From: Octopus vulgaris
Lineage: Eukaryota
Assembly: GCA_951406725.2 (NCBI GenBank)
Contig: OX597816.1
Location: forward strand, 22,010,001 to 22,074,000
DNA length: 64,000 bases
Direction of reading: 5' to 3'
A model generated the notes under the pieces. That model did no database searches and was not told the DNA's origin. It saw nothing but the letters and a program-made list of their open reading frames with translations. Of this stretch, positions 1,256 to 63,580 are shown in pieces. How positions within the stretch are numbered: position 1 is the first letter of the stretch; each line of letters starts with the position of its first letter. The position numbers and the translations under genes were made by a program.

Positions 1256-1452
1256 GAAAATAGTAAAAAGTGAAAAAACTACAGTAGGCTTGTTTTAGAA
1301 GGTTAAAAAAATATATATTTGAGTCATTATGTCTGAAGAATGTTATAATTTTTTTTCATACAATGACATAGTTTTTGAAGAAAGACCGGTTTCGCGTTCA
1401 GCTTTTCAAATTTCTTACAGCCTTCTGTAGTTTTTTCACTTTTTACTATTTT
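1256..1452. mobile_element. Short inverted-repeat element (Penelope pLTR-like relic) containing a degenerate hammerhead
   Basis: AAAATAGTAAAAAGTGAAAAAACTACAGTAGGCT (~1257-1290) is the near-perfect reverse complement of ~1420-1452. Flanked by (TA)n. Confidence 0.55.
1378..1416 (-). ncRNA. Degenerate type-I hammerhead motif (U3-A8 core variant)
   Basis: Minus strand reads AAGAAA U UUGAAAA GC-UGAAC-GC GAAA CCGG UC UUUCUU: stem I AAGAAA/UUUCUU, palindromic stem III, GUC triplet. Confidence 0.45.
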
Positions 1453-1692
1453 TTATATATTCAACCACGTGCTTTCACACACCAACTTTCTCACTTATAT
1501 ATATATATATATATATATATATATATATATATATATATATACCAATTAAGGACTGCACACGAAAAGTGGACAGTCAACATGCTAGATATAGACGTCAAAT
1601 CGCCATTCTCCACAAAAAGTTTATGTTCTCAGATCAAACTCAACAAAACCAAAGCAATAAACAAGTGAAAAATATACGAAATAAATATTTAC

Positions 1693-1757
1693 CCATGTAC
1701 TAAATTTAGTTTCAGCTGTTATTTTCCGCAAGGAAAAGTGCATCATCATCAGCATGG
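1693..1757 (-). ncRNA. Type-I hammerhead ribozyme motif with long, partly decayed stem II
   Basis: Minus strand reads CCAUG CUGAUGA ...UUUUCC-UUGC-GGAAAA... GAAA CUAAAUUUAG UA CAUGG: stem I CCAUG/CAUGG, palindromic stem III, GUA triplet. Confidence 0.6.
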
Positions 1758-2440
1758 TCCCATATAAAATGTAATTTGCTGGACTAAATGCCAACACGAC
1801 ACCAAAATATCGCGTGCATGGAGTCCGGCCTATTACATTTGAAATATATATTTCAAATGCTTTTACTTTTGGCGCGATGAGACCCGAGAAAACTAGCCTG
1901 CAGCTAATAGTTAGCAGCAGTAAATTATCTATATATATATATATATTAGTACATAAGTGTATATGTATATATATATATATATATATATATATATATATAT
2001 ATATATATGTATGTATATGGGAAGATTTTGTTTTACTCTACACAGGGAGAAAAATATAAGTTGAAAATGCATTGAGTGACCTTTGAATAGTTTATTTCTA
2101 TACCTAACTTCCTACTGGAAACGGAAAATGTTCTTGTTTTTGCGGACAGAACATACTTGAAATTAATGTGCTAAGGATACGATTTGACTGGCAGAGGATC
2201 ACCACGGGAAAATCTTTTCTAAGTTTCCCCGCTACGTCCGTGCGTTAATGTCATGTGACAATATATTTGGTCCGAAAGTTATTGGCTGACATCTTTGACT
2301 GAACGTGTCTAGCAAAGTCCGAAATAGTCACGGCGCTCCAAAATTCGTATGTCAAGTTATTAGACTGCACAGAAATCGTTTATAGGTAATCATTCAATTT
2401 TTTTACATCACCTTTCTTATGCAAGAGTTTGTATTTTTTA

Positions 2441-2863
2441 TTCTTTTACTTGTTTTATTCATTTGCCTGCGGCCATGCTGGAGCAAAGCTTTATACTGTT
2501 TCAGTCGAAGAAATCGACCCCAGGACTTGGTTTTTATGAGTCTAGTACTTATTCTATCAAACGCTTTTGCCAAACCGTTAAGTTAACGCAAACATACCAA
2601 AATCTGTTGTCAAGCGATGGCGGGAGGGACACACACAGACAAACATACACAAACACACATCAGCATACATGAATAAATACAAATAAATACCTACATACAC
2701 ACACATATATATATATGTTTTTTTTTTCACTTTCCGTATACCTAATCCACTCACAAGGCTTTGGACACAGTAAAAGACACTTCCTCACGTTGCCAGGCAG
2801 TGGGACTGAACCTAAAACCATGTGGTTGGAACGAAAGACTCTTACTACTAAGCCACGACCGCC
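2441..2863 (-). mobile_element. tRNA-derived SINE family A, diverged copy
   Basis: Reverse complement matches the copies at 11850 and 14357 (GCGGCCATGCTGGAGC tail, CAGTGGGACTGAACC head region). Confidence 0.85.
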
Positions 2864-2899
2864 TTCATGTTATTTCTTCGTGTTTTGTATTTTTATTGT

Positions 2900-3300
2900 A
2901 AATATATTTCATTCATTCGTATTTGAATTGTGATATTGTTTGAATACAGGTAAAGATGCTAGACTTGTAATTGTGTCGATTATTTGTCGTACATATCTAT
3001 GGTAAGAAAAATAATCAAAAGTTTCTCGTGTTTCAAACATGGGGAAATTGAGAGTAAAAACACTGAATGTTTGTAAGTTTGATACACCTTGCGGTTGAAC
3101 GAATATGATTTGTATGTATGTGTGTAGGGATGAAATTTTATTCTCCATTTAAATTCGAGCGTTAAAGTCGTTCGAGAAAATGTCATGATTGTGCCCAAAG
3201 TTAACATTGCTGATTATGTGAGTTCGAGATGTTAAGTGACAGAAGGTGTTTGTGTGTGAGTAGTTGTGGGTGAATGTACTTTGTTAAAATTTATTCAGTC
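2900..3300 (-). pseudogene. Penelope-like RT C-terminal fragment, frameshifted
   Basis: Mixed frames give TLEF..ENKISSL...SFNRKVYQ, resembling the PLE RT thumb region (compare FTMEY..QQIPFLD..TDIYYKPT at 23176). Confidence 0.5.
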
Positions 3301-60410: not shown

Positions 60411-61841
60411 TCCGCCAGTAAGGCAGCACGCTTGCACATTTAGCACGCCTAGCAAGAACAATATATTTATTAATTTTTGTTTAAGTCTATGTAATACTGA
60501 GCAGTCAGAGACAACGTCTAGACTCTCTACCCTTGACCAAATAGTACATCGATGATCTTACAGCTGGAGTGAGACGTTGCTATATCAGCCGTCGGCTTGA
60601 GTAACATAAAATGATTAGATAATATTGACCCATCAGGAGTAAGGGTGGAATTCAAGGAATTGCCATGAGTAGTGGATTCAATCGAAATCGAACCACTAAT
60701 GAAATATTACTAAAAAGTAAACAAGTATGTCAAATCGACAGGAAAAAGAAAAGAAAAATAAAAAGAAGGAAAATAAAGAAAACAGAAAGAGTAAGTGTTT
60801 TATGCTATGTTTAATAATATCGGAAAATAGAAGAGCAATTTTAGAGAACATATAACGGTTCAAATAATTGTAATGGTAGACGAGAATTAATTGTTAGTTA
60901 AATTCATAATAAAAACGGAGAGTTTAAAAAGATTAATGTTAATGCATGTCATGAGGGGCGCATCTAGGTATTCATAACTCCATTATTGTATAATATTCTC
61001 ATCATATTCGTTCTATGTATTGTCCCCTCTTCGGTGTCCTGTCTGTCTTTGTTTATCCCCCTCTATATTTAGGCCCTTGTGACTAATAAAGAAACCGAGT
61101 AAAATTATTTACTTTACTCCCGTACATAACGTGTCGGTCCAGTCCAAGTATTGAAACCATGACCTTATGTCTTCAAATCTTGCAGCCTAACTCTTAATAA
61201 TTAGTTGTCTGTTTTGATGTTATTAATGTGTCAACAGCTCACCACTACGATGATTCGAATTTCTTTTATCCGTTTCATCTGCACTAATATAGTCATATTT
61301 GAACAGAATATAGATTAGGTTATCAGTGAGAGCAAAAAAAAGTGTTTATATTGATGAACATTGATACAGGAATTTAATCGTAAATTATGGGAAGTCTTGC
61401 AGATTTAAAGTAATTAAATTCTGAAACAGAGTAATTGATATGATATATGAAAATGAGCTGAAAGTGTATGTCAATGTATTCCATCGCTTTCAAATGAAGT
61501 GATTAGTACAAAGACAACACACTAACGCGTATTATATATTTAAACCAGATATATTTTTCTTAAACAAATTTAACATCACTAAACTACTCTTGTAAAATGA
61601 TAAAATGTTTTTGTTGCATATTTTAAATCGTTTCATTTTTTTGAGCAAATGAAAGAAAAAGCTAAAAAATTAAATTTGCTTCATAAGCACACTTGCAATT
61701 ACTACTAAATAGGTGAACACGAACACGTATACATTTTTTATACATAGTACACAAATAGAACCATAAACAAGCCATGCTGTATTGGCAGAATCTTCAGAAG
61801 CACGGATAATATGTGTCGCGATACATAAATCCGGAATGAGT

Positions 61842-62095
61842 GGAGGCGCGTGGCTTAGTGGTTAGGGTGTCAACGCTATGATTGTAATTGTGTGGTTTCG
61901 ATTCCTGGACAGGGCGACGCGTTGTGTTCTTGAGCAAAACACTTCATTTCATGTTGCTCCAGTCCACTCAGCTGGCAAAAATGAGTAACGCTGCGGTGGA
62001 CTGGCTTCCCATCCAGCTGGAGAACACATACGCCATTGAAACCGGGAAACCGGGCCCATGATCCTGGTTAGGCTTTAAAAGGGCGCACTGATTTT
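61842..62095 (+). mobile_element. tRNA-derived SINE (family C-related head, different core)
   Basis: GGAGGCGCGTGGCTTAGTGG A box, GGTTTCGATTCC B box, CCAGTCCACTCAGCTGGCAAAAATGAGTA core. Confidence 0.85.
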
Positions 62096-62564
62096 TATTT
62101 AAAAAATACAATAAAAAGATAACAAAAATACATGAATACGGCATTTGTTCAAATAATATCCAAAGTAACTTTATCTTGCGTTCTTCGTGTGAAACCATTA
62201 GTGCGAAACACTTGTGACTTGGAAAAGTCTGACCACTTAAATTGCGATTCGGTTTCGAATCACTGCTAAAAGCCAATTAGGCCTTATATATATAAGCGCA
62301 CAAAATTATGGTCAAAAACTCCTTTTAAAAACTATAATGTGAGAATAATATTATATGAACATCATTGTAGGTACAGCTTTTTACCTACGTCTTCTAATGA
62401 AATGAATGAAATTAAATTGTGCCATGTGTCTATAATATCATCTTTTAACTCTTTCTGTATCTCATGTGTGTGTGATCGTTTGTATGTGTTTTTAAGTCGT
62501 TGTTCATTCCTGATTAATGCAATTCGGATCGAATAGAACTAATGAGTTTCTTTAAAAATATCGG

Positions 62565-62775
62565 TTTCAAATTTTAGCACAAAGCCAAGTGTTTCGGAGA
62601 TGGGGTGGAAGACGATTACATCGAACCTAGTGCTCAGCTTATACTTATTTCATCCACCCACGAAAAGATGGAAGGCAAAGTCGACCTCGACGTAATATGG
62701 ACAAAATGCTACGAACAGCCGGCTCTGCTTCCTAGGCATTCTGCTCTGCGTCCTAAAACTTTTTCCACCTCGCCA
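62565..62775 (-). mobile_element. SINE family B, diverged
   Basis: GAAGGCAAAGTCGACCTCG core in reverse orientation. Confidence 0.7.
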
Positions 62776-62814
62776 TCTTAGGTTATTTACTAATATTAAT
62801 TGAGGGAAATTGAA

Positions 62815-63580
62815 GGTGGTGATCTGACAGAACTTTTAGCATTCCACAAAAAAAAATGCTTAGCGGCATTTCGTCCGTCTTTACGTTCTGAGTTCAAATT
62901 CCGCCGAGGTCCACTTTGTCTTCGGTATTGGTAAAATAGGTACCAAATGAGCACCAGTGTAAATAATGTTTTATTGTTTAGAGATGGGGAATTCTGTACA
63001 TTATTTACATCAGATGGATATGTGTCCTCATCTTCTTTGTTGTTAACACAAAGTTTCGGCTTATTTACTCTCCAGCTTTCATCAGGTGTCCTTCTAGAAT
63101 CTTGAACCCAACCCTAGCTTCTCATTCCTAAGGTATTTCTTTTTTTGCTGAATGCTATTATTATTATTATTATTATTATTATTGAAAGCACTACCTGGAA
63201 TTGAACTCAGAATCATGGGGTTAGTAGCCCTCGCTCTTACTCATTACGGGCATATAGCATGAGGGTTAAGAGCGCGGGCTACTAACCTCAACCTCAAGAT
63301 TCTGAATTCAATTCCAGATAGTGCCTTGAATAAATAATAATAATGATAGTAATAACATCAGCAAAAAAAAAAAAAATACCTGAGGAATGAGAACCCAGGT
63401 TTGGGTACAAAATTCTACCAAGACACCTGATGAAGGCTGGAGAGTAAATCAGTCAAAATTTTGATGTAATAACAAACAAAATGAGGACAAATATACGTCC
63501 AATGTAAATAATGTACTGGTGTCGATGTAATCGACTTACCCGTTCGTCGAATTTGCTGGCCTTATGTTCAAAATTCGAAC
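62815..63580 (+). mobile_element. SINE family B copy interrupted by an H1 inverted pair
   Basis: 5' part to GAGCACCAGTGT (~62960); resumes ACTGGTGTCGATGTAATCGAC at ~63515. Confidence 0.75.
62961..63514. mobile_element. Head-to-head inverted pair of family H1 (tRNA head/HHR) elements
   Basis: Left arm (-) HHR at 63045-63090: GACAC CUGAUGA A AGCUG..AAGCC GAAAC UUU GUGUU. Right arm (+) head GGGCATATAGCATGAGGGTTAAGAGCGCGGGCTACTAACC and decayed HHR at 63422. Confidence 0.82.

What the first reader, a model, noticed from the sequence alone, without database searches (positions are those of the whole stretch)
1378..63470. Unusually dense and diverse set of minimal hammerhead ribozyme motifs (~17 in 64 kb)
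Seen: CUGANGA..GAAA..NUH motifs with a closing stem I at 1693(-), 11022(-), 11211(+), 11601(+), 18067(+), 29614(-), 31103(-), 35697(+), 41110(-) and 63045(-). Decayed or variant ones lie at 1378(-), 7053, 10716, 22196(-), 25017, 41629 and 63422. Most have tiny or palindromic stem III (ACGU, ACCGGU, ACAAUUGU, ACUAAAUUUAGU). Established: Penelope-like elements and retrozymes carry type-I minimal HHRs whose palindromic stem III favours dimeric cleavage. Inference: if this density is typical, the genome holds a very large number of potentially self-cleaving RNA motifs in introns and intergenic DNA.
Basis: partly seen in the sequence, partly recalled or inferred. Interest (0 to 1): 0.85.

Follow-up and report, generated by a model that had tools for sequence, protein, structure and literature searches.

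The report
Penelope hammerhead debris, one odd family
The 17 self-cutting-RNA (hammerhead) motifs are real, but they are mostly worn copies left by eight families of a known kind of jumping gene (Penelope-like elements and their likely hitch-hikers) in a locally crowded spot, and the one surprise is a young family with intact genes whose motif has changed a core letter in every copy seen, so it is predicted to cut poorly or not at all.

Summary
All 17 motifs are at the stated places and exceed chance. They are copies of eight genome-wide repeat families. G and H are 3' ends of Penelope-like elements (PLEs; RT plus GIY-YIG). B is the tRNA-headed end of another PLE. C and D are 481- and 505-bp non-coding tandem retrozyme-type repeats. 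A, E and F are short stubs with no coding parent found. Only 2 of 17 pass an intact-motif test. The density is not typical: 266 per Mb here against 44 per Mb in a 1-Mb sample and 50 per Mb in the flanks. That still extrapolates to about 120,000 copies, about 20,000 with intact canonical core. PLE hammerheads and retrozymes are published, and this scan found them before on other DNA of this genome. Several 'decayed' sites are family-wide variants (U4C, U3-A8). Most notable: family G has near-identical intact 784-aa ORFs, yet C replaces A13 in 102 of 102 copies held and stem I is 2 bp, while its equally young sister keeps an intact motif. This suggests cleavage may be dispensable for PLE copying. 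Cleavage was not tested.

The parts
1377..1416 (-). Family H hammerhead: U3-A8 core, 2-bp stem II, palindromic ACCGGU stem III; this copy lacks the base that closes a 7-bp stem I, as do about half of the copies held. 3' end of a PLE related to G.
1529..1926 (-). Family D insertion: 398 bp of a 505-bp non-coding tandem unit, starting inside the unit and running across the hammerhead to the family's fixed 3' end at a (TA)n tract
1693..1757 (-). Family D hammerhead: canonical core, 5-bp stem I, 12-nt palindromic stem III, U-U at the base of stem II (family-wide), one stem II pair broken relative to the family majority
7053..7087 (+). Family A minimal hammerhead, U4C subfamily, stems intact, ACGU stem III
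10716..10750 (+). Family A minimal hammerhead, U4C subfamily, stems intact (one G-U in stem I)
10871..11534 (.). Family C insertion (481-bp retrozyme-type unit): inverted arm 10871-11142 (-) and forward arm 11150-11534 (+), in the (TA)n tract at the end of the A copy
11022..11068 (-). Family C hammerhead, first base of stem II deleted
11211..11258 (+). Family C hammerhead, fully intact type I (7-bp stem I, 4-bp stem II, 4-bp stem III); identical core region in 326 genomic copies
11601..11646 (+). Family E hammerhead, identical to the family majority (23 of 33 copies over 95 nt); A-A at the base of stem II; ACAAUUGU stem III
18067..18109 (+). Family F hammerhead, canonical core, stem III decayed from the family's ACUAGU palindrome
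22130..25165 (+). 5'-truncated Neptune/Nematis-type PLE of family G with an inverted terminal copy (22130-22272) and 3' terminus (24981-25165) between (TA)n tracts
22291..24117 (+). Broken RT + GIY-YIG ORF remnant (residues 168-784 of the intact 784-aa family protein)
22197..22238 (-). Family G motif in the inverted end: A8, C13, 2-bp stem I, one stem II substitution
25015..25056 (+). Family G motif at the 3' end of the PLE: A8, C13, 2-bp stem I, one stem II substitution
29614..29648 (-). Family A hammerhead, canonical core, stem I broken at the second pair
31103..31136 (-). Family A hammerhead, deletion in stem II, stem I reduced to two pairs
35545..35623 (+). tRNA-like head (A- and B-box-like stretches) of a family B element
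35697..35746 (+). Family B hammerhead, canonical core, stem III palindrome broken (AGGU)
41110..41155 (-). Family B hammerhead, inverted arm of a pair; stem I 5' strand deleted, stem III broken
41629..41674 (+). Family B hammerhead, G12A (loss at a CpG, seen in 7 of 25 unbiased copies)
62996..63516 (.). Back-to-back pair of family B elements with tRNA-like heads at 63188-63248 (-) and 63246-63330 (+)
63045..63090 (-). Family B hammerhead, stem III broken (ACUU), stem II damaged
63422..63467 (+). Family B hammerhead, heavily decayed (G12A, stem III and stem I damaged)

Best explanation
The 17 motifs are copies of eight repeat families, and they were likely all pasted in by Penelope-type reverse transcriptase/endonuclease enzymes, after which most of them decayed. 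Shown: G and H lie downstream of RT/GIY-YIG coding sequence on the same strand; B lies downstream of a PLE-type coding remnant and starts with a tRNA-like head; C and D are non-coding tandem units; no coding parent was found for A, E and F. Shown: C and D copies have two fixed 3' ends at (TA)n and variable 5' ends, and inverted pairs are always back to back. Inferred mechanism: the enzyme nicks a microsatellite, primes near the 3' end of the element RNA, copies the motif about 100-300 nt later and usually stops early, often adding an inverted second arm. Every listed copy spans the scissile site, so the template was uncut or re-joined there. For C and D the likely template is a ribozyme-cut, re-ligated RNA circle or an uncut multimer. 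For the minimal motifs, cleavage would need two copies pairing through the palindromic stem III, so solo stubs are predicted to be mostly silent. Elements landing in each other's (TA)n tracts likely contribute to the local pile-up. Family G is predicted to have lost useful cleavage while still amplifying.
For: Eight families explain all 17 hits. RT and GIY-YIG in G, its sister and H. B-linked remnant matches RT- and GIY-YIG-annotated proteins. 71 inverted neighbour pairs in 200 loci, about 58 distinct, all 5'-to-5', none 3'-to-3'. C ends: 19 of 20 measurable 3' ends at unit position 215 or 337, counting one at 332. C and D units fold far better than shuffles as circles (z -6.4, -5.3). A 31-copy C array. 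10 full 784-aa frames of G at 95-96% identity among 124 matches, five of them 2-6 nt apart in 2,352. Same anatomy described in PMC8557442, PMC4209133 and PMC7229834.
Against: No cleavage, circle or transcript was shown. The coding parent of A, E and F was not found, and no PLE was matched to C or D by sequence. The reverse complements of C and D also fold well (z -3.8, -6.6), so folding does not pick a strand. Variants shared by distant units of the long C array point to copying between units after insertion, so array length is no proof of rolling-circle copying. Core letters in unbiased A copies differ less than flanks (8 of 330 against 137 of 2,421), which could mean some selection, although the flanks include subfamily differences. 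(TA)n tracts are as dense in the flanks as in the window, so target supply alone does not explain the peak.
Confidence: 0.85

Rival explanations
1. The genome is seeded with a very large set of working self-cleaving sites that cut host pre-mRNAs and non-coding RNAs at the density seen here.
For: Intact-looking motifs exist in bulk: 7 canonical and 12 U4C in 1 Mb against 0-1 and 0 in five shuffles, about 20,000 and 53,000 with U4C genome-wide. Core letters of A are somewhat better kept than flanks.
Against: Window density is 3- to 6-fold above the sample. 2 of 17 are intact canonical. G12 is lost in 7 of 25 B copies like other CpG sites. Minimal motifs showed no cleavage as monomers in PMC4209133, and 8 of 9 Xenopus retrozyme dimers did not cleave in bioRxiv 10.64898/2026.07.22.740005. 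The one perfect motif is fully paired with its inverted twin in a read-through fold.
Confidence: 0.1
2. Family G's motif is not dead but an active variant: C13 is tolerated in the dimer, or splicing or a protein supplies the missing stem I.
For: Stem II, the ACCGGU palindrome and the cleavage triplet are kept in both G subfamilies. A13 changes cost 10-100-fold, not total loss (PMC4075628, passage). D. virilis Penelope has a 2-bp helix I that changes on splicing (PMC4209133). An AG-ending, pyrimidine-rich stretch precedes the core in G's sister (splice use untested).
Against: Three weakening changes stack up: U3-A8, C13 and a 2-bp stem I. The two G subfamilies differ in the stem I strand without compensation. 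Retention of 27 letters between subfamilies about 4% apart is expected by chance in roughly one case in three (my estimate).
Confidence: 0.35
3. The long C and D arrays are ordinary satellites grown by unequal crossing-over from a PLE end, with no RNA circle involved.
For: Shared variants in non-adjacent units of the 31-copy array; the same route is proposed in bioRxiv 10.64898/2026.07.22.740005.
Against: Short C and D insertions on many chromosomes start at scattered points in the unit, run across the unit junction and end at fixed points in (TA)n, often with an inverted arm. That needs an RNA template longer than one cut monomer. The intact core and strong folding fit an RNA phase.
Confidence: 0.2
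4. The motifs are chance matches in AT-rich repetitive DNA.
For: The U3-A8 descriptor alone is noisy: 11 hits in 1 Mb against 2-7 in shuffles. Single motifs do not fold better than shuffles.
Against: Shuffle and reversed controls near zero for canonical and U4C cores; unrelated family sequences all pair in stems I, II and III around the same core; thousands of exact copies, controls 0.
Confidence: 0.01

Closest known systems
Minimal type I hammerheads in PLE pseudo-LTRs (Cervera and de la Pena 2014, PMC4209133; parts 1-2 of 4 read)
   Same: Many sequence families per genome, mostly solo copies, opposite-strand pairs 100-700 bp apart, extra base before stem II (A, B), palindromic stem III, U3-A8 core variant, few copies beside full ORFs.
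   Different: That paper's read parts name no cephalopod and no family-wide U4C, A6U or A13C. It says all PLEs examined keep a motif; family G keeps only a non-canonical one.
Metazoan non-LTR retrozymes (Cervera and de la Pena 2020, PMC7229834, passages and Discussion read; Li, Clavereau and Pollet 2026, bioRxiv 10.64898/2026.07.22.740005, parts 1-3 of 5 read; its supplements are closed)
   Same: C and D: non-coding, AT-rich tandem units with one type I hammerhead each, monomers to 31-mers, strongly folded; D has U-U at the base of stem II like axolotl HHR_Amex2; units fall within the 51-972 bp range of the 2026 paper.
   Different: Units (481, 505 bp) are longer than the ~300 bp typical in the 2020 paper; stem III is 4 bp or more; circles and cleavage are not shown here. 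Insertions carry PLE-type inverted arms and a one-sided tail of 90-120 bp.
Neptune/Nematis-clade EN+ PLEs (Craig et al. 2021, PMC8557442, passages read)
   Same: G: RT followed by C-terminal GIY-YIG with a CX4CxxC linker, partial tandem forming a pseudo-LTR (L356), inverted 5' copy (L355, window), ~40-bp one-sided tail, (TA)n target.
   Different: Non-canonical hammerhead in a young family; an upstream ORF overlapping the RT ORF at a TTTTTTA heptamer shared with the sister family. Clade not placed on a tree.
Schistosome SM-alpha/Sj-alpha SINE-like hammerhead repeats (as reviewed in PMC6765202, passage read)
   Same: Family B joins a tRNA-like, Pol III-type head to a hammerhead.
   Different: B has a minimal ACGU motif, occurs as solo or back-to-back copies, not tandem arrays, and in 2 loci continues upstream into PLE coding sequence on the same strand.
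Dimer-cleaving small hammerhead variants (Lunse, Weinberg and Breaker, RNA Biol 14:1499; not held, seen only as a reference; content recalled)
   Same: Reduced palindromic stem III, PLE association, very large numbers.
   Different: Could not check whether it lists the U4C, A6U or A13C cores.

Membership tests
Type I hammerhead ribozyme | Core C3 U4 G5 A6 N7 G8 A9 / G12 A13 A14 / A15.1-U16.1 / H17 | tested here: met
   Met in majority forms of B, C, D, E, F and the U4 subfamily of A. In the window, 10 of 17 copies have it letter for letter.
Type I hammerhead ribozyme | Same core in families G and H and the C4 subfamily of A | tested here: not met
   H: U3-A8 (published variant). A: U4C in 19 of 33 copies (published in a viroid, per PMC3088659). 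G: A8 and C13 in 102 of 102.
Type I hammerhead ribozyme | Three stems around the core, with covariation | tested here: met
   Unrelated stem sequences pair in all families; stem I only 2 bp in G and absent in part of H. Within families copies decay without compensation.
Type I hammerhead ribozyme | Rfam hammerhead model at gathering score | tested here: not met
   0 matches in 5 loci holding C, D, G, G-sister and H; none among the 150 of 294 weak window matches listed.
Type I hammerhead ribozyme | Self-cleavage after H17 | not testable with these tools
   Needs bench assay or raw RNA ends.
EN+ Penelope-like element (G, H, B) | RT with C-terminal GIY-YIG endonuclease | tested here: met
   G and sister: RVT_1 and GIY-YIG. 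H: RT and endonuclease-region matches. B: 65-aa remnant matching RT- and GIY-YIG-labelled proteins, weaker evidence.
EN+ Penelope-like element | Pseudo-LTR, inverted 5'-truncated copy, one-sided tail | tested here: met
   all ~58 distinct inverted pairs back to back.
EN+ Penelope-like element (A, E, F) | Link to a coding PLE | tested here: inconclusive
   None of 70 loci matched the G protein pieces; only one PLE query was used. Inverted pairs seen for E and F, rare for A.
Neptune/Nematis clade (G) | CX2-5CxxC linker before a CCHH-type GIY-YIG domain | tested here: met
   CX4CxxC read in both 784-aa proteins.
Neptune/Nematis clade (G) | Placement in RT phylogeny | not tested
   No reference PLE set held.
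Non-LTR retrozyme (C, D) | Tandem non-coding units, each with a complete type I hammerhead, at least two in a row | tested here: met
   The window's own C and D copies are not tandem.
Non-LTR retrozyme (C, D) | Expressed as linear and circular monomers | tested here: inconclusive
   Contigs of four runs only guessed to be RNA cover unit C and show the head-to-tail joint; tandem DNA gives the same, and no silent-stretch control was obtained.
tRNA-derived SINE (B) | tRNA-like head with A and B boxes | tested here: met
   B-box stretch upstream of 30 of 63 B copies against 6 of 2,200 control windows. ARAGORN finds no tRNA gene in the window.
tRNA-derived SINE (B) | Separate non-autonomous element transcribed by Pol III | tested here: inconclusive
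   L081 and L111 join the same tail to PLE coding sequence, so B may be the terminal repeat of a coding element; transcription untested.

The most novel reading that the evidence does not exclude
An autonomous, recently amplifying Penelope-like family (G; at least 10 intact 784-aa ORFs, about 2,000 terminal copies) has fixed a crippled hammerhead (C13, 2-bp stem I) and still makes normal partial tandems and inverted ends, while its equally young sister at 72% protein identity keeps an intact U3-A8 motif. If G does not cleave, ribozyme cleavage is dispensable for canonical PLE retrotransposition. The pair would then be a ready-made natural test of whether PLE hammerheads serve the element or parasitise it. 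The spread of U4C and A6U cores in the largest family points the same way.
Probability: 0.5. Interest if true: 0.58.

Novelty: new member of a known kind. Interest (0 to 1): 0.36.

Why it matters
The headline, many minimal hammerheads tied to PLEs and retrozymes in an animal genome, is published for other animals; this adds an octopus case at the high end of known densities. I found no paper on cephalopod PLE hammerheads or retrozymes in two searches (a third listing, led to a squid genome paper that counts 235 Rfam hammerhead hits). The useful part is narrower. The role of the PLE hammerhead is stated to be unclear (PMC8557442), and families G and its sister allow a direct test with intact, young elements. 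C is a young, near-uniform retrozyme with a 4-bp stem III, a good candidate for a first cephalopod ribozyme-made circular RNA.

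Tried and rejected
Rfam scans: no hammerhead family among the 150 listed of 294 weak window matches, all listed ones being microsatellite artefacts or similar; none at gathering score in 5 loci; nothing useful over the B head. Folding of single motifs: z between -1.4 and +0.5 for 8 of 8, uninformative. Expression: no listed holder is on record as RNA. Contigs of four guessed-RNA runs cover unit C with a head-to-tail joint, but this cannot separate RNA from DNA or circle from tandem, and no control stretch was obtained, so it is not used as evidence. 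Selection test in B: core 8 of 245 against 130 of 1,732 looks significant only because the CpG column G12 (7 of 25 changed) was dropped as polymorphic; with it the gap largely closes. A second or permuted hammerhead in G: no C3-G8 core and no convincing second U3-A8 core in L356; other ribozyme classes checked by Rfam only. An older G copy with A13: none among 8 diverged copies fetched. Microsatellite supply as the cause of the local peak: (TA)n tracts are 1,312 per Mb in the window, 1,250 in the flanks, 854 in the sample, so not sufficient. Reading B as an independent SINE: weakened by L081 and L111. A host gene in the window: one candidate frame tested, no Pfam match; intron status left open. 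Lunse et al. not held. Search for 'dispensable' PLE hammerheads returned 3 listings, none on point by title or abstract start.

Full report
Verdict. The motifs are real, and they belong to a known kind of system. The window is a local peak, most of its copies are damaged, and one family raises a testable question about what these ribozymes are for.

Setting. The window is G000:C3:22010001-22074000 in a 2.8-Gb genome, 34% GC and rich in microsatellites. The closest named match to a coding remnant linked to family B is a predicted Octopus vulgaris protein, so this is likely an octopus genome.

Observation. All 17 sites hold a hammerhead-shaped sequence. A descriptor needing the canonical core, at least 3 bp in stems I and II and a pairable stem III found 2 in the window (11211, 11601), against a mean of 0.02 in 100 shuffles; with a U4C core it found 2 more (7053, 10716), against 0.03. 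Of the 10 sites said to have a closing stem I, 29614, 31103 and 41110 do not. Stem III is a perfect palindrome in 10 of 17.

Eight families. Genome searches with each motif gave 700-2,500 first-look candidates each, of which 40 were scored. Profiles built from the fetched copies hit the window 17 times: A 4, B 5, C 2, D 1, E 1, F 1, G 2, H 1. The commonest real copies of the families have unrelated stem sequences that pair around the same core, which meets the covariation test between families. Within families, copies carry scattered uncompensated changes.

What they are. G: the stretch 22130-25165 is a truncated PLE with RT and GIY-YIG remnants, the motif downstream on the coding strand and an inverted copy upstream. 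H lies in the same position on a related PLE, 42-62% identical in matched stretches. B: a tRNA-like head precedes the tail in 30 of 63 copies against 6 of 2,200 control windows, and in L081 and L111 the tail follows a coding remnant on the same strand whose relatives carry RT or GIY-YIG labels. An earlier scan note (e1-8669850) prompted that check. C and D are non-coding units of 481 and 505 bp found as monomers and tandem arrays, up to 31 units for C. A, E and F are short stubs; none of their 70 loci matched the G protein.

Shared insertion anatomy. In the 200 loci, 71 neighbouring opposite-strand pairs (about 58 distinct) were all back to back and none face to face. C and D insertions end at two fixed unit positions, 215 or about 337 for C and 245 or about 334 for D, directly at (TA)n, and start at scattered positions. 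PMC8557442 describes this layout for PLEs: 5' truncation, partial tandems, an inverted 5' copy, a one-sided tail and microsatellite targets. In the window, C sits in the (TA)n tract ending an A copy, E follows C, and H and D share a tract.

Is the density typical? No. One hundred evenly spaced 10-kb stretches held 44 copies of the eight families (28 A including a distant A6U subfamily, 12 B, 2 F, 2 H; reversed control 0). The 80 kb flanking the window held 4. The window's 266 per Mb is about 6-fold higher, but the rare families were chosen because they occur here. For main A plus B alone it is 9 against 1.9 expected, and for intact motifs of any family 4 against 1.2 (P 0.035). Extrapolated: about 123,000 copies of these families (90,000-165,000), about 20,000 intact canonical motifs (8,000-40,000), about 53,000 counting U4C (Poisson intervals, clumping ignored). 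Exact counts agree in scale: 2,618 perfect B, 326 perfect C. Published counts are over 6,000 in a coral, about 5,000 in a mussel and about 120,000 in axolotl (PMC7229834), and 9,000 minimal motifs in Xenopus (PMC4209133). This genome is at the high end per Mb, not in a new range.

Can they cut? Untested. Against wide activity: 12 of 25 unbiased B copies keep all 11 core letters, G12 is lost at a CpG in 7 of 25, and single minimal motifs did not cleave in PMC4209133. A transcript across the C pair is predicted to fold back (89% paired) with the intact motif fully paired to its twin. For some activity: 26 of 33 A copies keep the core, allowing U4 or C4, and A core letters vary less than flanks, though flank variation includes subfamily differences. 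C is the best candidate: intact core, 4-bp stem III, uniform copies, and a unit folding far better than shuffles (z -7.7 linear; -6.4 circular; the reverse strand also folds well). Contigs from runs only guessed to be RNA cover it, which proves nothing. Variants shared among distant units of the long array show later copying between units.

Core variants. U4C is the majority in A (19 of 33) and appears in several other sample families; PMC3088659 notes it lowers activity yet suffices in a viroid. U3-A8 occurs in H, in G's sister and in sample families, and is published for schistosome PLEs. A6U marks 11 distant A copies in the sample.

Family G. A degenerate pattern found 1,953 copies; of the first 100 listed, none has A13 (98 C, 2 T) and 99 have A8. 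All 102 copies held have A8 and C13. Only 2 bp of stem I adjoin the core in both subfamilies; in the older one a 5-6 bp stem I is possible only if the core lacks two letters. Yet the family looks young: 10 full 784-aa frames at 95-96% identity to the window piece among 124 matches; five differ by 2-6 of 2,352 nt; L356 has a partial tandem and L355 an inverted end. A sister family, 72% identical in protein and 2-17 nt apart among five copies, has an intact U3-A8 motif with A13 in 6 of 7 copies seen, the seventh changed at A9. A13 changes are reported to cost 10-100-fold (PMC4075628, passage). I infer that G cleaves poorly or not at all, with about one chance in three that it works as a variant. 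PMC8557442 already notes that Naiads proliferate without canonical motifs and suggests hammerheads may parasitise PLEs, and an earlier scan note (e1-8672774) reports a non-coding family spreading after core changes. G adds an autonomous element with a matched sister.

Mechanism, shown and inferred. Shown: family membership, coding links for G, H and B, tandem units for C and D, fixed 3' ends, back-to-back pairs, decay. Inferred: PLE enzymes prime at microsatellites and copy the RNA 3' end, so the motif-bearing end is deposited far more often than the ORF. The listed copies span the scissile site, so templates were uncut or re-joined. C and D likely pass through cut and re-ligated circles or uncut multimers, the model of PMC7229834. 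Minimal motifs would cut only as pairs.

Novelty and score. New members of known kinds; interest 0.36. Searches for octopus or cephalopod hammerheads with PLEs gave only the Naiad paper and a twister paper; the passages of an octopus repeat annotation read had no mention of ribozymes (PMC13282606). Lunse et al. was not held, supplements were not read, and those of the bioRxiv paper are closed, so variant cores may be listed there.

Noticed in passing
L356:536-1951 and 1885-4236; L350:2985-4322 and 4262-6613: Full-length G and sister elements have an upstream ORF (about 430 aa from the first ATG) overlapping the RT ORF. Both carry a TTTTTTA heptamer in the frame expected for a -1 ribosomal frameshift. 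PMC8557442's figure legend allows a frameshifted ORF1 in some PLE types; which types was not visible.
   Followed up: partly
L221, L241, L250, L257, L269, L283, L293, L295: A distant subfamily of A (11 copies in 1 Mb) has U at core position 6 in all copies, with stems intact; roughly 30,000 copies if extrapolated.
   Followed up: partly
L202, L210, L235, L240, L252, L260, L279: Further hammerhead families absent from the window: U4C cores with longer palindromic stem III, a U3-A8 family with 6-bp stem I, and one canonical motif.
   Followed up: no
L350:7300-7330: In G's sister a pyrimidine-rich stretch ending in CAG forms the 5' strand of stem I, like a 3' splice site; recalls the intron end at helix I in D. 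virilis Penelope.
   Followed up: no
window:52222-53271 (+) and 45825-46094 (-): Broken LINE-type reverse transcriptase remnants (Pfam RVT_1).
   Followed up: partly
window:40396-40651: 256-bp self-inverted repeat (91%) overlapping a frame at 40164-40451 (-) that looks like a LINE C-terminus; no Pfam match.
   Followed up: no
window:17274-18006, 33328-33922, 43043-43686, 52010-52250, 60177-60409, 62557-62922: A 184-bp unit repeat family in short tandem runs, without a hammerhead core.
   Followed up: no
window:11850-12305, 14345-14753, 30275-30923, 31251-31417, 37157-37553, 48774-49149, 57790-58203, 2459-2856: Abundant ~400-bp SINE-like repeat with an internal microsatellite.
   Followed up: no
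window:31984-32175, 38366-38922, 48366-48744, 49418-49606: Another dispersed repeat family of 190-380 bp.
   Followed up: no
window:24657-24934: A ~140-bp internal duplication with CACGTG motifs in the 3' untranslated part of the G element, also present in full-length copies; possible promoter region of the pseudo-LTR.
   Followed up: no
window:36343-36760 and 26427-26900: Short frames that look like transposase or other coding remnants; one tested against Pfam with no match.
   Followed up: partly
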